Made by a program: the position numbers and the translations under genes | The notes under the pieces: model-generated | What the model was told of the DNA's origin: nothing | Seen by the model: only the letters and a program-made list of their open reading frames with translations | The model's database searches: none | IMG/VR virus record: IMGVR_UViG_2541047695_000003 | Direction: 5' to 3' (one strand) | Source: a virus | Lineage: Duplodnaviria; Heunggongvirae; Uroviricota; Caudoviricetes | DNA length: 34,489 bases | Part shown: in pieces, positions 1 through 33,506 of the stretch | Layout: the number at the start of each line of letters is the position of its first letter | How positions within the stretch are numbered: position 1 is the stretch's first letter

Positions 1-100
1 AAATTAGATACTAAATATATACGTGAAGGATGTTGAGCTGGTCAACGTCTACGGGGGAGAACATCCCCCGCTAACCTTTTTCTTATTTGAGGATTTACCT

Positions 101-202
101 ATGGTTGAATTTTTGATTTATCTGGCTGTAGGATTAACTATCGTATATTCACTGGCACATATTGGCATTTCTACTTTGTGTAACGCTTTCAAGTATCATT
201 AA
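101..202 (+). CDS. Small hydrophobic peptide (33 aa, MVEFLIYLAVGLTIVYSLAHIGISTLCNAFKYH), hypothetical
   Basis: ATG at 101 preceded by GAGGA Shine-Dalgarno (91-95); uninterrupted to TAA at 200-202; predicted single TM helix. Below the 60-aa cutoff of the ORF track. Confidence 0.25.
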   Translation: MVEFLIYLAVGLTIVYSLAHIGISTLCNAFKYH

Positions 203-255: not shown

Positions 256-429
256 ATGGATCTTTTTGTCTACTTTGCTACTCTGCTGTTTTTGACTATC
301 GTCGCTGGCATTAAATTGATTTTTATATCGCTGGTGGTATTTTTCAAATTTCTAATCGGTACGCCTTACGGCTGGGTATGTTTAATCCTGTTTATTCTTT
401 TTAGTTGCTGTAAATCAGACACTAAATAA
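256..429 (+). CDS. Small membrane protein (57 aa, two hydrophobic segments), hypothetical
   Basis: ATG at 256 preceded by AGAGGA SD; ORF runs to TAA 427-429; strongly hydrophobic product MDLFVYFATLLFLTIVAGIKLIFISLVVFF...; followed by two + strand terminators. Confidence 0.3.
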   Translation: MDLFVYFATLLFLTIVAGIKLIFISLVVFFKFLIGTPYGWVCLILFILFSCCKSDTK

Positions 430-14180: not shown

Positions 14181-17100
14181 ATGCAGTCGATCCAATTTAA
14201 ACGAACAAATGTTTCTGGCAAAAAACCAACGCCGGAACAATTACAGGTCGGTGAGGTAGCAATCAACCTTAAAGACCATGTTATTTTTACCAAAGACCGA
14301 GATCATGAAGTAGTTCAAATCTCTGTTTCTCCTGAAACTCACGCGGCACTAGAATCTAAAGTTGATGCTAATAAAAAAGAACTGGATAGCACAATTGCAG
14401 TAAATGACCGCAATATTCACGCTAAAGTAGATGAAATTAAACAAACTACTGATGCAACCATCGCAGCAAATCACGCAGAAATTAACAATAAAGTTGATGT
14501 AATTAAACGCGAAACCGACGCGACAATCGAGGCCAATAAAAATAAAGCTGCTTCCGATCTTGCTGGTGTTAAAGCTGAATTGTCGGATACCATCAACGCT
14601 AATAAAAATGCGGCTGCTGTAGCAACTCAGGAACTGGACACCCGCATCAATAAAAAAGTTGATGATATTAAATCCCGTACCGATGCAACCATCGCAAGCA
14701 ATGACAAAGCAATCAATGACAAAGTTGATTTGATTAAGGCAGAAACTGACCGCACTATCGCAGCAAATCACGCCTATGCGGAAAATCAGTTAACTGACAC
14801 CTACAATAACCTTACTGGTGTGATTGCAGCCAATAAGCAAGAGGCAGCGGATAACGTCGCAGCATTAACCCGTGATGTTGAAGCCAAAAATACAGCAATT
14901 CATAGCAAAGTTGACAATAACAAGTCTTACACTGATTCTGAATTGGCACGTTTAGAAAGCCGTATTGATGCAGCCGATGGATCTGCTGATGGCAAGTACA
15001 TCAAAAAACACGTAAACACTTATACTGATGGTTATTTGCTGTCTAAGACCGCAAACTATTTTGATGATCCAAATGCGCGTAATCTTGATTACTTTGGTGC
15101 ATTCCGCATGAATGACCTGGCGGGTCATATTGCAATGATCTTGCATGTTCCGCATCCATCTGGTGTTAATCATGCTCGTGGCTTCGAGTTCACTTATGGG
15201 TCTAATCCACATGCTACTGTAAGAACATACGGCTATGATGAATTGGGACATTTGGCATATTCTCACCGCATGTATCATGAAGGTGATAAACCTACTCCGG
15301 CTGAAATTGGCGCATATTCGAAAGCAGAAATTGACCGACTGTTCCAGAAGACGCTTAATTTTGGTATCGAGGGTGGTTGGTTTAAACTAGGCACTTTGAC
15401 AATGCCACAACAACACGGTCGCACGGCTAAGATCCGTTTGGTTGGTGGTAACGGTTATAACGTAGGACATAATGGACAAGCCAATATTATCGAATTGGTG
15501 ATTCGATGCGGCAACAATAGCCCGAAAGGTGTTGTATTCAATGCGTATTATACTATTTGGCATCATGAACAACATTTTTGCGCTATTCCAACCGATGGCG
15601 ACAATTACGATCTTTACGCTTACTACGGTGCACATACAGGATTTGTTTTAGCAGAATATCAAGTTTCTTCCGGTGGTGTTTCTTTAAACCTGTTGGATAC
15701 TCCTGAATATCTGGGTGGTGAAAAACCTGTTGCAGATGAAATTTTTGATGCTCTTAACATTTCATCGTTCAATAACTTTAGCAACCGTGGGACGTTAAAT
15801 TTTGCTGGCAATCATCAAGGCCAATATGATATTGAGCATTTAAACGAACAACCGACAAATGCTAAAAAGATGTTGCGTCGCTTCCGTAGTTGTGCACCAG
15901 CTACAATCTGGCATGAGACAGTTGATGATAACGCATATCGTCTTGCTACTGGATACGAAGATACAAATCAGGAATTATTGCTGTCAGCAACATCCGGGTT
16001 ACATGTCAAGAAATTAACATTGGATGGCGGTGTTACTGGAAATTCTGGTATTGATATTCGTCGAGGACCAAACGAATCAAGCCATTTTAATTTCATGGAT
16101 TATCGCACTGGACAAGATGTTCGTAATGGCTGGTTTGGCTTCGGTGATGGTCAGACCAAAGATTTTATTTGGTGGAACGATAACGGTCAAAACTCTATAA
16201 ACCTGATTGAAGATGGTGAATTGCATATTACTGGCGGTAAAGGCCAGAAAATTGTAATGAATAGCGAAGTTGCATTATCTGAAAATGCTCGTTTGGCTGT
16301 CAAAGGTGGTAACTATGGTTTAATCCTTCGTAATGATGGTTCTAGCTTCCATATTCTTACTACCGATTTAAAAGATTCCTTTGGGACGTGGAACACTCGT
16401 AGACCATTTAGTTATGATTTCGCCGAAGGTGGATTAGATCTAGGTGGCACAGCTACCGCACGCTGTTTACATCTGGGAATTGATGGTAGCACCCGCATCG
16501 AAGATAATATGGTGTTTAGATCAGGGTCTCGTCAGTCAATGGACTATATTGAATTAATCCATTGGGGTAACAGTAATACCGCTCGTAACAACGTTTTGAG
16601 TATGAAAGACTCGAAAGGATTCCTTGCTGAATTTGAACGCGTGGGGGGTACTAACGGCGTTAAAACCAGATTCTTTGGCGAAACATTCACTGACGGTACA
16701 TTATACCTAAATCAGATGAATAATAGCTCTGAACGATTCTCTATCAATAACTGGGGAAATTCAGAAGTTGGTCGCGCGGCAGTGATGGAAGTCGGTGATT
16801 CCAAAGGTTATCACTTCTATACTGAACGTAGGACAGATAACAGTTTGATGTTTGATGTTGCTGGCGCTTTTACTGTGCATGGACCTTCCGGGATTACTAT
16901 CAAAAACTCTGCTGGTGCTCGCCACGTCTGGTTTAGAGATGATAGCGATACGGAAAAGGCTGTTATCTGGGCTACAGATGAGGGTATTTTACATATTCGC
17001 AATAACCACGGTGGACAATTTACACATCACTTCCAGGGCGCGATGATTAAACTGGAAGGGCGTGTTCCTTATGCCGCAGATCAAGGACTTATCCGTGGTG

Positions 17101-27100: not shown

Positions 27101-27854
27101 TGATAATGCGATGATTCGTAATGCTGCAATTGGCACAGCCCAGATTAGTGATGCTAGTATCACCACGGCTAAGATCGGCACAGCCCAGATTAACGGCGCT
27201 CACATCCAACACGCACAGATCGGAACAGGTCATATCATTGATGGCTCTATCGATAATGCTAAAATTGGTAACTATATCCAGTCTTATAACTGGAATGGTA
27301 ACGATGGATGGTATATCGGCAAAGATGGCACTTGTCATTTTAGACACGCTAATATTCGTGGTCATTTGGTGGCTGATTCCGGCGAAATGAACAACGTAAC
27401 GATTAATTCAAGTTGCCGCATTTTGGGTATGCTTGATGCTAATCAGGTGCGTGGTGACTTCGTGAAAGTGGTTGGTAGGAGTTTCCCGCATCGCCAACCA
27501 AACTGGCCTGATGGTGCAATCACTGTAAGGGTCGAAGATGATCATCCATTCGATCGCCAAATAGTGATTCCAGCGATTCATCATAACGGGTCTGTTCGTA
27601 GTGGCGAAAGTAGCGATCATTGGGATACTTGCCGACTAATCGTTAAGAAAAATGGTGGTGTTCTATATGATCGCACTGCAACTTCTGGCTGTATGTACAG
27701 TGGAGTTATTGACATGCCAGCCGGACACGGGGCAGTAACAATGACTTTTGAAGTTTACTGTAAGGGCGTTAACAACTATAACCCAAGTGCATATATCAGC
27801 GATCTAACGGTAATGGTAACTAAGAAAGCCGCTACTGGTATTTCTGTTTCTTAA
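24108..27854 (+). CDS. Tail tip attachment / host-specificity protein, lambda J-like (1248 aa) with N-terminal lambda gpI-like hydrophobic segment
   Basis: By recall of lambda: C-terminal ~150 aa match the lambda J receptor-binding region (DDHPFDRQIV, DMPAGxGxVxxTF, VMVxKKxAxGISV); N-terminal ~95 aa resemble the C-terminal half of lambda gpI (hydrophobic Gly/Ala stretch, APKTPK, VLPVLFG); central region has Ig/FN3-like segments and repeats ATSE(Q/A)ASA(T/S)KIDQV. Confidence 0.9.
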   Translation: MGFEILVGAVIAGASAGMAAAATFSVMTAVAIGMAAGAMTLIASTVGAPKTPKVQSPDNAVTLGTSNDPKTVLPVLFGTTRTGAICVYKAISQRENNKLVQIFAIAEGEIDHFKALHIDNKNVLISQNMTIRDGILDKGNIKDEYRKVLEVEFRTGKNPNTALDLAKHHLGADWDDRYQGNGIATMCIVLRRDDKSLAAGVDILQPNSQVAVDVMGLKIRNLETNAIEASTNGVDQIFHYLTNTKYGLSVPIENINVDSFLKVRKQVRQMDLHSNGACDPNASFKENLTSLMQTFGGVMFESFGRITLKLDAPDIVKHTFNEDNIMMGKVSLKTGGTNGYFNTINAMYQEPSIDYSEQMLRYPADAENDATIRQDGRIIAKDIEYRFVKSKAQIDKLASVERNKSRITQVISFMTTDAFTAEVWDVISVTYDELKLNNSLWRITAIDRSIDSGIAGMMTITATEYNSQVYTDLNYAATPDNRPTGLPDSMTVQKPTNFRIKATGETIHGKNVTLTWDAPEDFNRYGFQIDYRVSGSPNWIKLGQTSQQIFNINALAKDRSYDYRVCAFGIIARSEWVELVNQNPTVTYELPTPVIRIKNQGSTPGTFEGNDLIIEWENQQQLDVMINGEANKFSDLFEAYIIKVTNKAGKSIQYRTRDPESWTYTLDMNQFNGLSRELTVEVSVKGYNNSESAPARLVAINPQHKPMKGFSARGGFNTAFVSWADDVEHDYAGSIIQYATDNTFSDARAVTTNSVSHTSFDLADGDYYIRGAHYDIFGMDDAVWSEPYFMQMKSTISWDDQDKEALEDLIGLQDRLDETIADAIAQAGANADAKIDAMHKQITTETGQTVQASADTLKSLIATSEQASATKIDQVKAELKGDITKEVSASATTLKQAIATSEAASASKIDQVRVEMDGKIAGVNQEADVKIDALKGTINSKYNLAVNADGRVAGIHMSATNDPAEPTRIIFTADKIAVAPQDGSEVCPFGIEDNKVYLDNAMIRNAAIGTAQISDASITTAKIGTAQINGAHIQHAQIGTGHIIDGSIDNAKIGNYIQSYNWNGNDGWYIGKDGTCHFRHANIRGHLVADSGEMNNVTINSSCRILGMLDANQVRGDFVKVVGRSFPHRQPNWPDGAITVRVEDDHPFDRQIVIPAIHHNGSVRSGESSDHWDTCRLIVKKNGGVLYDRTATSGCMYSGVIDMPAGHGAVTMTFEVYCKGVNNYNPSAYISDLTVMVTKKAATGISVS

Positions 27855-27872
27855 AATTTAATTCTAATAATT

Positions 27873-27913
27873 AATCCCGCTTAATTCTTTTGAGTTAGGC
27901 GGGATTATTTTTA
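27873..27913 (+). terminator. Hairpin AATCCCGC...GCGGGATT plus ATTTTTAT after tip protein gene
   Basis: 8-bp perfect stem, 18-nt loop, T-rich tail. Confidence 0.5.
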
Positions 27914-27959
27914 TCTAAATAATTCTGCCATTAAATTATATAAAAATATCGGGGGCGTA

Positions 27960-28238
27960 ATGACTGAAATTATATATGGCGGTATCGGTGTTATCGCCTT
28001 AATTTGTGGTGGGCTTTGGAGACTTCACCGAAATCAATTAGCCACAGAAAATAGATTGTCGAAATTGGAATCCAGCGACGCATTGTTAAACCAGAAGTTT
28101 GAGACGATGCAGAATAACCATACTCAGATTGCTGAACGTGTTTACCAAATGGAACAAACACTACACGGTATAGAGAAGAAAGTGGTTGCGATGGACGCCA
28201 AATTTGACCAAGTTCTCGACATACTCAAACAAAAATAA
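27960..28238 (+). CDS. Lysis-associated membrane protein (92 aa): N-terminal TM helix plus coiled-coil; holin or i-spanin-like
   Basis: IIYGGIGVIALICGGLW TM segment followed by heptad-like helical region; first gene of the cassette that ends with the endolysin; GGGGGCG SD. Confidence 0.5.
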   Translation: MTEIIYGGIGVIALICGGLWRLHRNQLATENRLSKLESSDALLNQKFETMQNNHTQIAERVYQMEQTLHGIEKKVVAMDAKFDQVLDILKQK

Positions 28239-28256
28239 TAATAAAGGGGTGAATAT

Positions 28257-28427
28257 ATGAAGAATAAACTTAAGAAATATTTTGGTTATCTCTTGATTGT
28301 CGCCCTCACTTATAACGTAGCTATTAGACCTCTGCTAACGTCCTTTGGGCTTGAACTCCCGGCTATGACCGTGGATGAACAATTGCTAAGGACACTGGCG
28401 GGGGTCTTTTCGTTATTAGGGGGCTAA
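28257..28427 (+). CDS. Small membrane protein (56 aa), holin-like candidate
   Basis: ATG 28257 (GGGGTGAATAT upstream), MKNKLKKYFGYLLIVALTYNVAIRPLLTSFGL...; below track length cutoff; stop overlaps next start (28429). Confidence 0.35.
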   Translation: MKNKLKKYFGYLLIVALTYNVAIRPLLTSFGLELPAMTVDEQLLRTLAGVFSLLGG

Positions 28428-28428
28428 C

Positions 28429-29112
28429 ATGGCAACCAGTACCAATAAACGAAACGCTCTAAGGACAAAGAAAGCGTTACGCCAATGGACTGATAAAGCA
28501 ACCGATACATTCGAAAGGGCGATAGGGGAAGGGGCGATCTTTGCTGCTCGTGCACTCCAGAAGAAGATTAACAAGAATGTTGATAGACCTACTCGATGGA
28601 CTCAGCAAGCTGTAGGTAATACCAACTACAAGAACCGATCAGGGACGAGACACCAAATCTTCATCAAGGGCGCAAGGGATAAGGACAAGAAGATCGGCAG
28701 TCAGGATGACTATCTGAAACACTATTTCGATGGTGGCAAAATCAATAAGCTAGTTCCAATCGCTAACGGCAAGGTCTTAGACGCCCACGGGAACATTAAG
28801 GCCATCAAAGGCGGTAAGATGATGCGTAACCTCGAAAACGGCAACTTCATCAAGGTAGAGAACAAGGAAGGGACTTTTATCATGAAGAAGTACAAGCCTA
28901 AGAAATCCCGAACCAAACGCGCTAGGAATGGATCGGCGGTGGCAAAACGTCGCTTAGAGAAACGCATACAGAAACAGAGCAAGCGAATTGTTGCCGTTAA
29001 ATCGGATAAAATTTCTACTCGTTATTCGACGCTAGGATCGTGGGAAAGCAACGAAGCAATGATGCTTGAAAACATCAATAAGCACATTAAATCGCGCATG
29101 AAATACGTTTAA
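28429..29112 (+). CDS. Highly basic hypothetical protein (227 aa, Lys/Arg-rich)
   Basis: Real-looking ORF with GGGGG SD; composition suggests nucleic-acid binding; function not recognised. Confidence 0.65.
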   Translation: MATSTNKRNALRTKKALRQWTDKATDTFERAIGEGAIFAARALQKKINKNVDRPTRWTQQAVGNTNYKNRSGTRHQIFIKGARDKDKKIGSQDDYLKHYFDGGKINKLVPIANGKVLDAHGNIKAIKGGKMMRNLENGNFIKVENKEGTFIMKKYKPKKSRTKRARNGSAVAKRRLEKRIQKQSKRIVAVKSDKISTRYSTLGSWESNEAMMLENINKHIKSRMKYV

Positions 29113-29150
29113 TCCATAAATACCCTCATAGAAACTTATGGGGGTATAAC

Positions 29151-29498
29151 ATGGCTAAAAATATTTTCACTGAATTTCCTACTTATCCGGTCGATCAGCT
29201 TTCCGGTATTTTTATTAATGGCATTAGCCCAGAATCTATGACACATGATTTTGAGGCGAAGAGAGTTAAACATAAACAATATAAAGAATGTATCCGCGAT
29301 CATGAAAAAGGGACCGTGTTTTGTGTCGCTACATTGGCTAAACGTCCTAAGTATCGTTTTCGTGTAGGACAAGAAGTTGATGTGGTTAATCCTTATAGCT
29401 TTAACTGTCTGGGCGATGCACGCGCGGTGTGTGTAGGCACTGCTCCTTATTATATCAAGGGTATGCGCTTTATTGGTTATATCTTCGAAATGATCTAA
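29151..29498 (+). CDS. Hypothetical protein (115 aa)
   Basis: ATG with GGGGGTATAAC upstream; no motif recognised. Confidence 0.6.
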   Translation: MAKNIFTEFPTYPVDQLSGIFINGISPESMTHDFEAKRVKHKQYKECIRDHEKGTVFCVATLAKRPKYRFRVGQEVDVVNPYSFNCLGDARAVCVGTAPYYIKGMRFIGYIFEMI

Positions 29499-29507
29499 GG
29501 GGGTAAT

Positions 29508-29861
29508 ATGTTAAGTAAGCATTTTTCTCGCAAGGAATTTAAATGTAAATGCGGAAAATGTGATTATGATACAATCGACGCTGAATTACTGGTGATTCTT
29601 GAGGATGTACGAGAGCACTTCGGTAAACCAGTGATTATTAACAGTGGCAACCGTTGCCCGACTCATAACAAGAATGTAGGCGGGGCAGCCAATAGCTATC
29701 ACGTTCGAGGCCGCGCGGCTGACATTGTTATCAAGGGTGTCTCGCCTGATATTGTTCATGCTTATCTTGATGGGAAATATCCTACTCAATACGGCTTAGG
29801 AAAATATAAAACTTTTACGCATATTGATTCCAGATCAAAAAAATCACGGTGGAATGGATAA
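29508..29861 (+). CDS. Endolysin, peptidase M15 family (L-alanyl-D-glutamate peptidase-like, 117 aa)
   Basis: SRKEF-x-CKCG...SGNRCPTHN...SYHVRGRAADIVI...THID matches the zinc-peptidase M15 signature found in small Gram-negative phage endolysins; strong terminator follows. Confidence 0.8.
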   Translation: MLSKHFSRKEFKCKCGKCDYDTIDAELLVILEDVREHFGKPVIINSGNRCPTHNKNVGGAANSYHVRGRAADIVIKGVSPDIVHAYLDGKYPTQYGLGKYKTFTHIDSRSKKSRWNG

Positions 29862-30225
29862 AACAAAAGCGCCTCTGGTGGGCGCTTTTTTGTTAGAATA
29901 TGCTGGCGATGTTAGCTATATTTCTGACCATTTTTTCATTATAGACAAATATACCGCAGATGATAAAGTTGTATTCGACGAAGTTGATCCGTCTCTGGTT
30001 GAAGCAATGAAAGAACCTGAGATCGTCATTGAAGAAACAAAAGAAGAATCTCCAGCAGTTGAACCAGTGGTCGAAGAAGTTAAGTCAGATGTTGAAGAAG
30101 CACCGGAAGTTAAAGTGGAATCTCCGGTAGCCAACATTTTCTCTGACGAAGCAGAACATCGTTCCCCAGCACATGACACTGATTCATTTTGCGATCTTAC
30201 TGGTTTCCAAAACTACAATAATTAA
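29824..30225 (+). CDS. Acidic hypothetical protein; start uncertain (first in-frame ATG after the terminator is at 30007)
   Basis: Track ORF overlaps the endolysin 3' end and the terminator hairpin, so the real start is probably downstream (TTG 29890 or ATG 30007); the Glu/Val/Pro-rich product could also be non-coding. Confidence 0.3.
   Translation: MIPDQKNHGGMDKTKAPLVGAFLLEYAGDVSYISDHFFIIDKYTADDKVVFDEVDPSLVEAMKEPEIVIEETKEESPAVEPVVEEVKSDVEEAPEVKVESPVANIFSDEAEHRSPAHDTDSFCDLTGFQNYNN
29868..29892 (+). terminator. Rho-independent terminator (AGCGCC-loop-GGCGCT plus TTTTTTG)
   Basis: 6-bp GC stem, 7-nt loop, T6 run directly after the endolysin stop; marks the end of the late operon. Confidence 0.75.
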
Positions 30226-30271: not shown

Positions 30272-31270
30272 ATGAATACTACTTTAGCAAAGGATATCGA
30301 ATTTACCGCAAAAAGCAAACGTGCGACCCCTCCGGTCGAATATGAAACCAGAATCATTAAAGTTTGTCAAGTGCATGGATGGTTATACAGTGGTTTTGTG
30401 CTTCCTGTAAAGAAACCATTCCAGAACACCAAAGTTTGCATAGAAGTTAACGGAAAGGTTAAAACGCCATGTATTAGTCATGTTCTAACTGGTCAGTTTA
30501 CTGGCAAAGATAGAGTATCACCGCCTAAGAAGAAGTTTAGATTTACCGAAGAAGAACACTTAGAAAACGCTCGCAAGTTCTACAAGCCGATAGGGTGGGA
30601 TGTGTTAGGTCTGGCTGAACCTTATCAGGGTGTTGACACTAAACTAATTCTTCGTTGTAAGTGCCACGGAAAGATTCACAAGAAAGGTGATTTACACAAT
30701 AACCGCAGACAAGGCGGGTTAACATGCCCTTTGGTTAGGGGTGTACTTAAATCAATTCAGAATGGTAGAAAACAGGTTATCAGAAACAAGTTTGCACAGC
30801 GCCCTATGCACTTTTATCTAATTCGTGTTGGCGAGAAGTTTTTCAAATATGGAATTACCACTCGCAAAGATCCGATGCAACGGGTAAGAGAACACCAGAA
30901 GCACACCAGCGAGAAAATCACCTTTGAATGCTCACATTTGTTTAACATTGGATGGAAAGCTGGTGATTTAGAAATGGGGATTAAAAAGAATATTCAGGGC
31001 AAGAAAATCCCACGTAAGGTAATGAATAGCGGATTCACAGAAACGCTACCGATTAGCAAGCTGAAAGATGTTAAATCATTCATCAATGAATACATCCACA
31101 CCAACCCATCTAAGCCAATGTATTTTGATGATACCAACGCAATCAATCTGAACAACTACATTAGTGATGAAGACATAGAACGAGATTTATCGCAGTGGAT
31201 GAATGCACCGTTAGCTGATTTAACACCGGAAGACTTAGAACTCGATTTAAGCCCTTTAGAGGCTCTTTAA
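30272..31270 (+). CDS. T5orf172 / GIY-YIG-like domain protein with N-terminal Cys/His-rich region (332 aa)
   Basis: HFYLIRVGEKFFKYGITTRKDPMQRVREH matches the T5orf172 (MUG113) signature of the GIY-YIG superfamily as I recall it; N-terminal CQVHGW...C...CKCHGKIHKKGD suggests a zinc-binding module; GAGGA SD. Confidence 0.7.
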   Translation: MNTTLAKDIEFTAKSKRATPPVEYETRIIKVCQVHGWLYSGFVLPVKKPFQNTKVCIEVNGKVKTPCISHVLTGQFTGKDRVSPPKKKFRFTEEEHLENARKFYKPIGWDVLGLAEPYQGVDTKLILRCKCHGKIHKKGDLHNNRRQGGLTCPLVRGVLKSIQNGRKQVIRNKFAQRPMHFYLIRVGEKFFKYGITTRKDPMQRVREHQKHTSEKITFECSHLFNIGWKAGDLEMGIKKNIQGKKIPRKVMNSGFTETLPISKLKDVKSFINEYIHTNPSKPMYFDDTNAINLNNYISDEDIERDLSQWMNAPLADLTPEDLELDLSPLEAL

Positions 31271-33086: not shown

Positions 33087-33506
33087 TTAAAGAATTTCAC
33101 GGCAGCTAATCAGGGAATAAGACGTATCACCTTTTTTAACATCAAATATAGGAGAACCATCAATAGAATGCAGATATTTGATGTAAGACTTACCATCTTC
33201 GGAACCATAATATTCTTCTTTCTCGTTCTTATCTTCTTTCAGTTTCGGGCTTTTGATTGTTTTATCAAATACCGGATCGTTGAAAGCAAATTGACTATTA
33301 TCATCATTCACTCGAACCTTTACACCGATAAAACCACGGTATTTGCCAGACGGCGCATGATAATAACGGTCGCCATCACTCAGGTAGCGTGTATCATCTC
33401 CTTTATGTTCGAAGTAGGAATTGCACACATAATAGGTATAGGTATTAGCATTCGCAGCACCAACCAAACCCAGAGCAAGAACAACACCCGCGATAATCTT
33501 TTTCAT
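33087..33506 (-). CDS. Secreted/periplasmic protein with cleavable signal peptide (139 aa), moron-like
   Basis: MKKIIAGVVLALGLVGAANA signal peptide with A-N-A cleavage-site motif; mature part Tyr/Asp/Lys-rich with two Cys; GAGGA SD 9 nt upstream. Confidence 0.75.
   Translation of the reverse strand: MKKIIAGVVLALGLVGAANANTYTYYVCNSYFEHKGDDTRYLSDGDRYYHAPSGKYRGFIGVKVRVNDDNSQFAFNDPVFDKTIKSPKLKEDKNEKEEYYGSEDGKSYIKYLHSIDGSPIFDVKKGDTSYSLISCREIL

What the first reader, a model, noticed from the sequence alone, without database searches (positions are those of the whole stretch)
27960..29861. Atypical lysis cassette: TM/coiled-coil protein, small membrane protein, basic 227-aa protein and M15 endolysin, with no obvious o-spanin
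The endolysin (29508-29861) is clear, but the upstream genes do not form a canonical holin/endolysin/Rz/Rz1 set. 27960-28238 has i-spanin-like topology (N-terminal TM plus periplasmic coiled-coil), yet I found no lipobox-containing small ORF embedded in or following it. The 56-aa membrane ORF may be the holin. A strongly basic 227-aa protein and a 115-aa unknown sit between them.
Basis: partly seen in the sequence, partly recalled or inferred. Interest (0 to 1): 0.45.

Follow-up and report, generated by a model that had tools for sequence, protein, structure and literature searches.

The report
Spanin-less prophage lysis cassette
This is the cell-bursting gene set of an E. coli prophage: a wall-cutting enzyme preceded by four conserved genes of untested function, with no gene of the usual kind for breaking the outer membrane, which makes it moderately unusual but not unprecedented.

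Summary
Five real, conserved genes lie at 27960-29861 between two terminator-like hairpins. The last is a soluble Peptidase_M15_3 endolysin. No lipoprotein (spanin) gene exists in any frame of the cassette, in the rest of the window, or in the relatives examined.

The interpretation needs correcting in three places.

- **ORF92 is not i-spanin-like.** Its charge distribution predicts N-out/C-in, so the coiled coil is cytoplasmic. That is the architecture of the phage Mu gp25 "releasin" (DUF2730), although sequence homology to that family is not established.
- **ORF56, ORF227 and ORF115 form a conserved trio.** ORF56 is a small membrane protein, ORF227 a very basic protein, and ORF115 a small protein of unknown fold.
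- **The four upstream genes travel as a block while the endolysin is exchanged.** Across E. coli, Salmonella, Providencia and more distant prophages, the endolysin at the 3' end belongs to three unrelated families: M15_3, M15_4 and GH24 lysozyme.

I read this as a spanin-less lysis module. ORF56, possibly with ORF92, most likely supplies the inner-membrane hole. ORF227/ORF115 remain unassigned. ORF227 may be a virion protein (it is a distant relative of RcCronus gp44, with a weak HK97-gp10-like fold), or it may be a cationic outer-membrane factor.

About 13% of phages of Gram-negative hosts lack identifiable spanins, so this is a new variant of a known kind.

The parts
27872..27907 (+). Strong terminator-like hairpin (16-pair stem followed by a T-run) after the J-like tail-tip gene. 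It marks the upstream boundary of the cassette.
   Evidence: sequence
27960..28238 (+). ORF92: a single-pass membrane protein with a 3-residue acidic N-tail, a Gly-rich TM segment (residues 4-20), the basic junction W-R-L-H-R, and a roughly 70-aa coiled-coil domain predicted to be cytoplasmic. It has releasin/DUF2730-like architecture and is a candidate holin partner or regulator.
28257..28427 (+). ORF56: a small membrane protein with a basic N-terminus (MKNKLKK), one TM segment, and a periplasmic tail ending in an amphipathic helix. It matches phrog_2024 weakly. It is the best holin candidate and is always found immediately upstream of, and translationally coupled to, the ORF227-like gene.
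28429..29112 (+). ORF227: a very basic (pI 10.7), fast-evolving soluble protein with the conserved motifs KIN..IDRPT.FT..AV, YL..YF.GG and GNI. It is a distant relative of phrog_1924 / Rhodobacter phage RcCronus gp44 ('minor tail protein'), and its model has a weak HK97-gp10-like fold. Its role is unresolved.
29151..29498 (+). ORF115: a small soluble protein with an invariant N-terminal motif (FPTYP..QL.GIF.NG..PESMT) and a beta-rich C-terminal half. It has no family or fold assignment and is always found directly downstream of the ORF227-like gene.
29508..29861 (+). Soluble Peptidase_M15_3 endolysin of 117 aa with no signal or SAR sequence. The H-x6-D motif (H65, D72) and H105 are present. 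It is 55-64% identical to the endolysins of SP6/K1E-type podophages.
29865..29889 (.). GC-rich hairpin flanked by A-runs and T-runs (a bidirectional terminator-like site) immediately after the endolysin stop codon. It marks the downstream boundary of the cassette.
   Evidence: sequence

Best explanation
The region is the dedicated lysis transcription unit of a siphovirus-type prophage of about 35-40 kb. The prophage has a lambda-J-like tail tip and a large serine recombinase, and in E. coli it is integrated in hicB. The module contains no spanin.

**Proposed mechanism.**
1. Late in infection the five genes are co-expressed.
2. The M15 peptidase is made as a soluble cytoplasmic enzyme, so it needs a large lesion in the inner membrane.
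3. Only two membrane proteins are encoded in the unit. ORF56 (N-in/C-out) is the most probable hole-former. ORF92 (N-out/C-in, with a cytoplasmic coiled coil, built like the Mu gp25 releasin/DUF2730 proteins and like B. subtilis PBSX XhlA) is its partner or timing regulator.
4. After the membrane is permeabilised, the peptidase cuts peptidoglycan cross-links.
5. The outer membrane is then broken either without a dedicated protein or by a non-lipoprotein factor. The only candidates in the unit are ORF227 and ORF115.

**What is shown.** Gene reality and conservation, the endolysin's identity, the absence of lipoprotein genes, and linkage of the four-gene block to three different endolysin families.

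**What is inferred.** Which protein makes the hole, the topology of ORF92 and ORF56, and any role of ORF227/ORF115 in lysis.
For: **The endolysin is soluble and of a known type.** It is confidently a Peptidase_M15_3 enzyme with no export signal. Its closest relatives are the endolysins of SP6/K1E-like phages.

**The block is tied to lysis rather than to one enzyme.** The genes for a ~92-105-aa TM+coiled-coil protein, a ~54-57-aa TM protein, a ~181-227-aa basic protein and a ~101-117-aa protein stay homologous and colinear. The gene at the 3' end varies:
- Peptidase_M15_3 in the window, L003-L006, L008, L009, L025 and L026.
- Peptidase_M15_4 in L011/L012 and L021/L022.
- GH24 Phage_lysozyme in L023/L024.
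- The ORF56/227/115 trio also sits next to a lysozyme-type endolysin in phage record DCP80 and in metagenome contig L013.

**Few holin candidates.** ORF92 and ORF56 are the only TM proteins in the unit. Apart from the TM-like segments of the tape-measure and J proteins, one secreted protein and two unannotated mini-ORFs at the far left end, no other membrane protein is encoded in the window.

**No spanin.** There is no lipobox anywhere, the positive control worked, and relatives end the prophage directly after the endolysin with the integrase or host genes.

**ORF92 architecture.** Its N-out/C-in prediction, its size, the TM-junction basic residues and its position near the endolysin match the published description of Mu gp25/DUF2730. 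That family includes subtypes paired with cytoplasmic endolysins.

**ORF56.** It aligns over 46 columns with an annotated Listeria phage holin (hhalign probability 55%, P 1.2e-4).
Against: **No family match for a holin.** None of ORF92, ORF56, ORF227 or ORF115 matches a curated holin, antiholin, spanin or releasin family in Pfam, NCBIfam or PHROGs above noise.

**The two sequence leads are weak.**
- The ORF56-holin match was picked from a database-wide tblastn at E = 7. TM proteins also align easily.
- ORF92 against Mu gp25/DUF2730 gives hhalign probabilities of only 5.7% and 17.7%.

**ORF56 is an unusual hole-former.** A 56-aa protein with a single full TM segment is not the usual kind of holin for a soluble endolysin.

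**ORF227 may have nothing to do with lysis.** Its only annotated relatives are called 'minor tail protein' (phrog_1924; RcCronus gp44). Fold searches weakly recall HK97-gp10-type neck proteins.

**Other holin candidates exist.** Two small hydrophobic ORFs at 23-202 and 256-429 could in principle be holins encoded elsewhere.

**Coverage and evidence type.** About 2 kb of the left arm of the prophage may lie outside the window. Topologies are predictions from charge distribution only, and there is no experimental evidence of any kind.
Confidence: 0.6

Rival explanations
1. ORF227 and ORF115 are virion proteins (neck, tail-completion or minor tail components) that are merely co-transcribed with a minimal holin(s)-endolysin pair, much as P2 places tail-completion genes R and S after its lysis genes. 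This reading is compatible with the main explanation for ORF92, ORF56 and M15.
For: - ORF227-family member P0084 matches phrog_1924 'minor tail protein' at E 2.4e-33 and phrog_27 'tail completion or Neck1' at E 0.0055.
- ORF227 itself hits phrog_1924 at E 1e-3.
- Foldseek top hits include several 'HK97-gp10 putative tail-component' or 'Type I neck protein' entries (E 0.01-0.7).
- One family member weakly hits Minor_tail_Z (E 0.11).
- RcCronus gp44 is annotated 'minor tail protein'.
- The cassette follows the tail-tip gene.
Against: - There is no Pfam HK97-gp10 hit, and hhalign against HK97 gp10 itself is negative (probability 0.08%).
- All fold scores are weak.
- I found no experimental basis for the 'minor tail' label.
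- The gene never lies inside a neck or tail module. It sits next to an endolysin or just before the terminase.
- It is always translationally coupled to a small membrane protein.
- It evolves much faster than its neighbours: 35% amino-acid identity between E. coli and Salmonella, against 63-86% for the adjacent genes. That is unusual for a neck protein.
- The structural module already has five small unassigned head-tail proteins.
Confidence: 0.3
2. ORF227, possibly with ORF115, is the missing outer-membrane disruptor. In this reading it is a highly cationic protein that reaches the periplasm through the holin lesion and destabilises LPS, making it functionally analogous to the phiKT gp28 disruptin although unrelated and four times larger.
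For: - Net charge is about +37 and pI is 10.7, and all homologues are similarly basic.
- It is conserved next to endolysins of three families in cassettes that all lack spanins.
- It is tightly coupled to the putative holin gene.
- The phiKT paper predicts that other spanin-less phages encode cationic membrane-active proteins (10.1101/515445).
Against: - There is no sequence or size resemblance to gp28, which is 56 aa with charge +7.
- The AF2 model is a folded alpha/beta protein rather than an amphipathic peptide.
- The hints of a virion-protein relationship point elsewhere.
- RcCronus gp44 is not adjacent to lysis genes in the linear map.
- A basic protein could equally bind DNA.
- There is no experimental support.
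Confidence: 0.12
3. One reading: ORF92 is an i-spanin whose o-spanin partner is missing, degenerate or non-canonical.
For: - ORF92 has an N-terminal TM segment plus a coiled coil.
- It gives a weak phrog_739 'Rz-like spanin' hit (E 0.036).
- It lies in a lysis cassette.
Against: - Charge distribution in all four homologues examined predicts N-out/C-in, whereas Rz is N-in/C-out.
- No lipobox ORF is embedded in, overlapping or following it, either in the window or in any relative.
- The single coiled coil of about 65 residues is short, and the soluble domain has no conserved Cys.
- The phrog_739 score is at noise level among a dozen generic coiled-coil hits.
- The absence of a partner is conserved across E. 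coli, Salmonella, Providencia and more distant prophages, so it is not a recent loss.
Confidence: 0.04
4. The M15 peptidase is not the endolysin but a virion-associated or accessory peptidoglycan hydrolase, and the five genes form a tail-accessory or entry module rather than a lysis cassette.
For: The cassette directly follows the tail-tip gene, and ORF227 has 'minor tail' relatives.
Against: - The protein is a minimal single-domain enzyme 55-64% identical to bona fide podophage endolysins.
- In relatives it is replaced at the same position by classic endolysin types, T4-lysozyme-like GH24 and M15_4.
- The family scans of the other window ORFs returned no second peptidoglycan hydrolase.
- The unit has its own terminators.
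Confidence: 0.04

Closest known systems
Phage Mu gp25 'releasin' / DUF2730 (PF10805) proteins (Chamblee et al. 2022, PMC9239132)
   Same: ORF92 shares these features with gp25:
- It is about 92-105 aa long.
- Only about 3-5 residues are on the periplasmic side.
- It has a single N-terminal TM segment with predicted N-out/C-in topology.
- Basic residues sit at the TM/cytoplasm junction.
- It has a helical cytoplasmic domain of about 70 aa.
- It is encoded within a few genes of the endolysin in a late unit.

The paper notes DUF2730 subtypes that are paired with non-SAR, cytoplasmic endolysins and whose role is untested, which is the same situation as here. The alignment places GG-x-W-(basic)...A-T/S-E-x-R-x-x-x-L-E in register.
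   Different: - Sequence homology is not established. There is no Pfam hit, hhalign probabilities are 5.7% and 17.7%, and the only other link is a 'faint' precomputed PF10805 hit on one distant homologue.
- The gene lies upstream of the endolysin, not downstream.
- The host element is not a transposable phage.
- The partner endolysin has no SAR domain or N-terminal Lys pair, so the demonstrated releasin mechanism cannot apply as published.
Lambda-type two-component spanin Rz/Rz1, and the SP6 i-/o-spanin pair that accompanies the closest endolysin homologues
   Same: ORF92 has a TM segment plus a coiled coil and lies in a lysis cassette. The endolysin is 55.6% identical to SP6 gp46, which is followed by an i-spanin and an o-spanin.
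   Different: The predicted topology is the opposite of Rz. No lipoprotein partner exists in any frame. Nothing is encoded downstream of the endolysin except a terminator.
phiKT gp28 disruptin and other spanin-less lysis systems
   Same: This is a phage of E. coli with no lipoprotein gene at all and a cassette holding extra small or basic proteins. About 13-15% of phages of Gram-negative hosts are spanin-less.
   Different: No protein here resembles gp28 (56 aa, net charge +7, no TM segment). ORF56 is the same length but is a TM protein with a net charge of only about +3. ORF227 is cationic but is a folded 227-aa protein.
B. subtilis PBSX XhlA/XhlB/XlyA and other two-component holins (from my own knowledge of Krogh et al. 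1998; not checked with the tools)
   Same: The gene order is the same: a roughly 90-aa membrane-anchored coiled-coil protein, then a small holin-like membrane protein, then the endolysin. In PBSX both membrane proteins are needed for efficient lysis.
   Different: XhlA has its TM segment at the C-terminus. PF10779 XhlA is not matched (only E 0.84 on one homologue). The host is Gram-positive. Two extra soluble genes intervene here.
phrog_1924 'minor tail protein' (for example Rhodobacter phage RcCronus gp44) and HK97 gp10-family neck proteins
   Same: ORF227 shares the motifs DRPT-x-FT, YL...GG and (Y/F)GN(I/L) with RcCronus gp44. Profile links connect them, and there is weak fold similarity to HK97-gp10-type proteins.
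   Different: - ORF227 is far more basic.
- It is always paired with a small membrane protein and a ~110-aa partner in the enterobacterial lineages.
- It lies outside neck and tail modules.
- It has no detectable sequence similarity to HK97 gp10 itself.
- The 'minor tail' name appears to be annotation only.

Membership tests
Two-component spanin (i-spanin + o-spanin) | The o-spanin is a small outer-membrane lipoprotein (signal peptide plus lipobox Cys), encoded embedded in, overlapping or adjacent to the i-spanin gene. | tested here: not met
   There is no lipobox-like motif in any frame of 27800-30000 or in the rest of the window, and none in the cassettes of relatives. The scan recovered the SP6 o-spanin as a positive control.
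Two-component spanin (i-spanin + o-spanin) | The i-spanin is a class II (N-in, C-out) inner-membrane protein with a periplasmic coiled-coil domain. | tested here: not met
   The positive-inside rule gives 0 K/R before the TM segment and 4 K/R in the 15 residues after it, in four homologues. This predicts N-out/C-in. This is a prediction only, not an experiment.
Unimolecular spanin (T1 gp11 type) | An N-terminal lipoprotein signal plus a C-terminal TM segment in one protein. | tested here: not met
   No lipobox ORF was found. No cassette protein has a C-terminal TM segment.
Releasin / DUF2730 (Mu gp25) | A protein of about 100 aa with an N-terminal TM segment, N-out/C-in topology, a very short periplasmic tail, basic residues at the TM-cytoplasm junction and a cytoplasmic helical domain. 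| tested here: met
   compared with the description in PMC9239132
Releasin / DUF2730 (Mu gp25) | A significant sequence match to PF10805 or to Mu gp25. | tested here: inconclusive
   - No Pfam hit for any of six family members at E<=10.
- hhalign against Mu gp25 gave P 0.0067 and probability 5.7%.
- hhalign against a 7-sequence DUF2730 alignment gave P 0.0014 and probability 17.7%.
- There is one 'faint' precomputed PF10805 hit, on the L023 homologue.
Releasin / DUF2730 (Mu gp25) | Paired with a SAR endolysin whose short cytoplasmic N-terminus carries basic residues; found in transposable phages. | tested here: not met
   The endolysin N-terminus MLSKHFSRKEFKCK has no hydrophobic SAR segment. 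The element uses a serine recombinase and a lambda-like gpA terminase.
Holin (generic) / phi-LC3-type holin | A small membrane protein encoded beside the endolysin in the late unit, with membership of a described holin family. | tested here: inconclusive
   Position and size fit for both ORF56 and ORF92. No holin family is matched in Pfam, NCBIfam or PHROGs. ORF56 against the Listeria LP-P111 holin gives hhalign probability 55%. Hole formation cannot be tested with these tools.
Disruptin (phiKT gp28) | A short, strongly cationic amphipathic peptide without a TM segment that complements an Rz/Rz1 defect. | tested here: not met
   ORF56 has a TM segment and a net charge of only about +3. ORF227 is a 227-aa folded protein. 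Complementation cannot be tested here.
Peptidase_M15_3 endolysin | A Pfam PF08291 match above the gathering score, with Zn-binding H-x6-D ... H residues. | tested here: met
   97 bits against a cutoff of 23.2. NSYHVRGRAAD aligns with the H-x6-D motif of the Streptomyces Zn DD-carboxypeptidase 1lbu. H105 lies in the conserved FTHID (sequence).
HK97 gp10 family (neck / tail-completion) | A sequence match to the family (Pfam HK97-gp10_like) or to HK97 gp10 itself. | tested here: not met
   No Pfam hit for any of 15 family members. hhalign against HK97 gp10 gave probability 0.08%.
HK97 gp10 family (neck / tail-completion) | Fold similarity. | tested here: inconclusive

The most novel reading that the evidence does not exclude
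The conserved block of ORF92, ORF56, ORF227 and ORF115 is a previously undescribed, self-sufficient envelope-disruption system that works with any soluble endolysin. In this reading a releasin-like protein plus a mini-holin opens the inner membrane, and the cationic ORF227 (with ORF115) replaces spanins in breaching the outer membrane. That would be a second, protein-sized class of 'disruptin'.
Probability: 0.1. Interest if true: 0.75.

Novelty: new variant of a known kind. Interest (0 to 1): 0.42.

Why it matters
How phages that lack spanins get through the outer membrane is an open question, with one solved example so far (phiKT gp28). What DUF2730-like membrane-tethered proteins do when paired with cytoplasmic endolysins is flagged as unresolved in the Mu releasin paper.

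This prophage family offers a compact, genetically tractable E. coli K-12-compatible test case. It has a five-gene unit bounded by terminators. Three of its genes (ORF92, ORF227 and ORF115) returned only 17-50 close homologues, all from E. coli, Salmonella or Providencia, in a 5.8-billion-protein collection, and an ORF227 family profile found only 12 related clusters among 1.84 billion representatives. The fourth, ORF56, was not searched there and has only a weak phrog_2024 match. The block is naturally combined with three different endolysin types.

If ORF227/ORF115 turn out to be virion proteins, the result is only a modest annotation improvement. The element is also present in about 1% of complete E. 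coli genomes, and in one strain it carries mcr-1, so its ability to lyse and spread has some practical relevance.

Tried and rejected
- **Searching for a hidden o-spanin or u-spanin.** I scanned all six frames with ATG/GTG/TTG starts and a relaxed lipobox, and inspected every Cys by hand. Nothing was found.
- **A 105-aa lipoprotein in the Salmonella and Providencia relatives.** It lies beyond the integrase on the opposite strand and is absent from E. coli. I rejected it as a spanin; it looks like a moron.
- **My recollection that ORF56 resembles the 3-TM GTA holin family.** No Pfam hit was found for any of six family members, so I dropped the idea.
- **Family scans.** Pfam, PHROG and NCBIfam scans of all cassette proteins and of distant homologues gave only noise-level or 'unknown function' hits.
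- **PDB sequence search with the ORF227 profile.** Only chance hits came back; the best was adenovirus pre-protein VI at E 0.15.
- **Direct hhalign of the ORF227 family against HK97 gp10.** This was negative.
- **tblastn against phage genomes.** ORF92, ORF56, ORF227 and the L013 99-aa protein gave essentially nothing. This family is not represented among isolated phages except in the DCP80 record.
- **Foldseek afdb50.** The library was unavailable.
- **Literature on the prophage.** The one search run on the prophage (terms mcr-1, prophage, hicB, PE15) listed no paper describing it. I found no experimental basis for the 'minor tail' name of RcCronus gp44.


Full report
**1. What is there**

The window is essentially one prophage. 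It is E. coli DNA. The 2-kb cassette is 97-98% identical to chromosomal segments in 52 of 5,426 complete E. coli genomes. In strain PE15 the element is inserted in hicB and ends with a large serine recombinase.

The five ORFs named in the finding are at the stated coordinates. The evidence that they are real genes is as follows:
- Each has a GGGG(G) ribosome-binding site.
- PGAP calls the same five CDS.
- The same five genes occur in the same order after the J-like tail-tip gene in Salmonella and Providencia prophages.
- Non-synonymous divergence is far below synonymous divergence, which is saturated in most comparisons.

The unit is bounded by a 16-bp-stem terminator after J (27872-27907) and a bidirectional terminator-like hairpin right after the endolysin stop codon (29865-29889).

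**2. The endolysin**

The last gene (29508-29861) is a 117-aa Peptidase_M15_3 (E 8.8e-28; phrog_894 'endolysin' E 1.7e-45). Its H-x6-D motif aligns to the Streptomyces Zn DD-carboxypeptidase. It has no signal or SAR sequence, so it needs a true hole in the inner membrane.

Its closest relatives (55-64% identity) are the endolysins of SP6/K1E-type podophages. In SP6 that gene is followed by an annotated i-spanin and o-spanin. Here a terminator follows instead.

**3. No spanin**

I scanned all six frames for a start codon followed by a signal-like segment and a relaxed lipobox. I also inspected every cysteine in the three + frames of the cassette. Nothing qualifies.

The only Cys preceded by hydrophobic residues is Cys16, inside the ORF92 TM segment (ALIC, with Ile at position -1). 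It is not conserved in the Salmonella homologue. No credible lipoprotein is encoded anywhere else in the window.

The scan recovered the SP6 o-spanin as a positive control. It found nothing in the cassettes of the relatives. A 105-aa lipoprotein in the Salmonella and Providencia elements lies beyond the integrase, on the other strand, and is absent from E. coli. It looks like a lysogenic-conversion gene.

In all relatives the endolysin is followed directly by the integrase, cargo genes or host genes. The absence of a spanin is therefore a stable property of the whole lineage. In the spanin census of Kongari et al., 91 of 677 phages of Gram-negative hosts had none (PMC6139136).

**4. ORF92 is not i-spanin-like**

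ORF92 has a Gly-rich TM segment at residues 4-20 and a clean heptad repeat at about residues 56-85. In four diverged homologues the N-tail is 3-5 residues long, acidic and free of K/R. The 15 residues after the TM segment carry four K/R in each. This predicts N-out/C-in, with the coiled coil in the cytoplasm, which is the opposite of Rz.

That description matches phage Mu gp25 closely. The Mu paper (PMC9239132) describes gp25 as follows:
- It is a 99-aa type I (N-out, C-in) membrane protein.
- Four residues lie in the periplasm, and the cytoplasmic domain is 73 aa.
- It has a conserved basic pair at the membrane junction.
- It is encoded within a few genes of the endolysin.
- It belongs to DUF2730, which has subtypes that accompany cytoplasmic endolysins and whose function is unknown.

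A distant ORF92 homologue (L023, 105 aa) carries a 'faint' precomputed DUF2730 hit. I tested homology directly:
- Pfam gives no DUF2730 hit for six family members.
- hhalign against Mu gp25 aligns GG-x-W...ATE-x-R...LE in register, but with probability 5.7%.
- hhalign against a seven-member DUF2730 alignment that I assembled from Mu-like phages gives probability 17.7% and P 0.0014.

ORF92 therefore has the releasin architecture, but membership of the family is unproven. The published releasin mechanism, release of a SAR endolysin that has N-terminal lysines, cannot apply to this soluble enzyme.

**5. The ORF56-ORF227-ORF115 trio**

Searches over billions of proteins found very few relatives:
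- ORF92 homologues occur only in E. coli, Salmonella and Providencia.
- ORF115 returned 17 clusters; every one that carries an organism name is from E. coli, Salmonella or Providencia.
- ORF227 returned 6 clusters in the word-indexed search and 12 in an exhaustive profile search of 1.84 billion representatives.

Looking up the loci of the distant ORF227 relatives was the most informative step.

| Loci | Genes after J | Endolysin at the 3' end | What follows |
|---|---|---|---|
| L011/L012, L021/L022 | ...101-102 aa (TM + coiled coil), 54-56 aa (TM), 186-199 aa basic, 105-106 aa | Peptidase_M15_4 | integrase or host genes |
| L023/L024 | the same four genes | T4-lysozyme-like GH24 enzyme | - |

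- In phage record DCP80 and in metagenome contig L013 the trio, without an ORF92-like gene, sits next to a GH24 endolysin and just upstream of the terminase genes. In DCP80 the ORF56-like gene is present but uncalled.
- ORF56-like and ORF227-like genes are always adjacent, with overlapping or 1-5-nt-spaced stop and start codons.

Retention of the upstream block while the enzyme at its end is exchanged among three unrelated families is the main argument that the block belongs to the lysis function rather than to one enzyme.

**6. What the trio members look like**

*ORF56* has a basic N-terminus, one TM segment, and a roughly 30-residue tail ending in a strongly amphipathic helix. It and the L013 homologue match only phrog_2024, a family of unknown function. 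Its single database-wide tblastn hit (E 7) is an annotated Listeria phage holin. A profile comparison gives 55% probability over 46 columns. This is a lead, not a proof.

*ORF227* is extremely basic (pI 10.7) and evolves fast. It is 35% identical between the E. coli and Salmonella alleles, against 63-86% for its neighbours. Its links to known families are as follows:
- One distant family member (P0084) matches phrog_1924 'minor tail protein' at E 2.4e-33 and phrog_27 'tail completion or Neck1' at E 0.0055.
- Through P0084, the family reaches Rhodobacter phage RcCronus gp44, which shares the DRPT-x-FT, YL..GG and GN(I/L) motifs.
- RcCronus gp44 is the last gene before the cohesive end and the terminase genes, and I found no experimental basis for its name.
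- A direct profile comparison with HK97 gp10 is negative.

*ORF115* has an invariant N-terminal motif and a beta-rich C-terminal half. Its model is poor and its fold matches are uninformative.

**7. Most likely mechanism**

The enzyme is cytoplasmic, and the only membrane proteins in the unit are ORF92 and ORF56. The inner-membrane lesion is therefore most probably made by ORF56, the universal member of the block. ORF92 would act as a cytoplasmically exposed partner or timer. This two-component arrangement recalls PBSX XhlA/XhlB (from my own knowledge, not tested here).

Outer-membrane rupture is either unassisted or due to a non-lipoprotein factor. ORF227/ORF115 are the only candidates in the unit. 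The phiKT work predicts that spanin-less phages use cationic membrane-active proteins. However, the hints that ORF227 is related to virion proteins make a structural role about as likely or more so.

I put 0.6 on the overall reading: a spanin-less lysis module with the holin function in ORF56 and/or ORF92. I put about 0.3 on ORF227/ORF115 being virion proteins and about 0.1 on their being an outer-membrane disruptor.

**8. Caveats**

- Topologies are inferred from charge only.
- All remote similarities are weak.
- Two unannotated hydrophobic mini-ORFs at the far left of the window (23-202 and 256-429) could be alternative holins.
- Roughly 2 kb of the left arm of the prophage, seen in PE15, may lie outside the window. 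Its two ORFs are soluble.

**9. Novelty and score**

Spanin-less cassettes and accessory lysis genes are known, so this is a new variant of a known kind. Three things are specific to it:
- A four-gene block with no match above noise to any family of known function.
- Its pairing with three endolysin families.
- A releasin-shaped protein paired with a soluble endolysin.

It is worth a simple genetic test, but nothing computed here shows a new mechanism. Interest: 0.42.

Noticed in passing
window 29953-30208, with 30272-31270; relatives L004-L006, L008, L025, L026: The stretch 29953-30208 is 97-98% identical to the inh gene (prohead-protease inhibitor) of RB49/Phi1-type T4-like phages (Krischvirus). 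It lies just downstream of the endolysin terminator and just upstream of a 332-aa endonuclease-like gene (phrog_681, E 4e-20; weak CapR domain).

Salmonella and other E. coli relatives carry a UvsY fragment plus a UvsW-like helicase at the same spot. In Krischvirus Phi1 the gene order is uvsY - uvsW - inh. This prophage family therefore holds a piece of that T4-like locus next to a putative homing endonuclease. This suggests recent recombination or homing between T-even-like phages and the prophage.
   Followed up: partly
window 14181-17705: A 1174-aa fibre gene shares 79-94% nucleotide identity with parts of the distal long-tail-fibre gene (gp37) of T-even phages. It sits among the head-tail connector genes of this siphovirus-type prophage. 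This is a second block of T4-like DNA in the element.
   Followed up: no
window 29824/29854-30225: An ORF (133 aa from a TTG start; called as 147 aa by PGAP in PE15) starts inside the endolysin gene, reads through the terminator hairpin and continues into the inh fragment. It is probably an annotation artefact made by the captured inh remnant, not a gene of the cassette.
   Followed up: partly
window 23-202 and 256-429 (+): Two unannotated, very hydrophobic mini-ORFs (59 aa with one TM-like segment; 57 aa with three) lie at the left end of the window, far from the endolysin. They might be small membrane toxins or exclusion proteins, or alternative holin candidates.
   Followed up: no
L002 8817-13470 (E. 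coli PE15, NZ_CP041628): In strain PE15 the same prophage carries an ISApl1-mcr-1-PAP2-ISApl1 composite transposon (colistin resistance) in its left arm, close to the position that corresponds to the left end of the window.
   Followed up: no
window 33087-33506 (-); L003 14321-15550; L004 15340-15657: The slot next to the integrase holds different exported cargo in different hosts. E. coli has a 139-aa Sec-signal protein. Salmonella and Providencia have a 105-106-aa lipoprotein, and Providencia also has an OmpW-like porin. These are probably lysogenic-conversion genes.
   Followed up: partly
L015 (phage record PQ671644, 'Escherichia phage DCP80'): This record is filed under Straboviridae (141 kb). 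It contains a siphovirus-type block: a 1252-aa protein, endonuclease VII, an uncalled ORF56-like gene, ORF227-like and ORF115-like genes, a GH24 endolysin, and a protein resembling the HTH-type protein encoded at the left end of the PE15 prophage. The record may be chimeric or mis-classified.
   Followed up: no
window 29112-29151: The ORF227-ORF115 spacer contains an inverted repeat (ATACCCTCAT ... ATGGGGGTAT) whose 3' arm includes the ORF115 Shine-Dalgarno sequence. This could be a translational control hairpin. It was seen by eye and was not folded.
   Followed up: no
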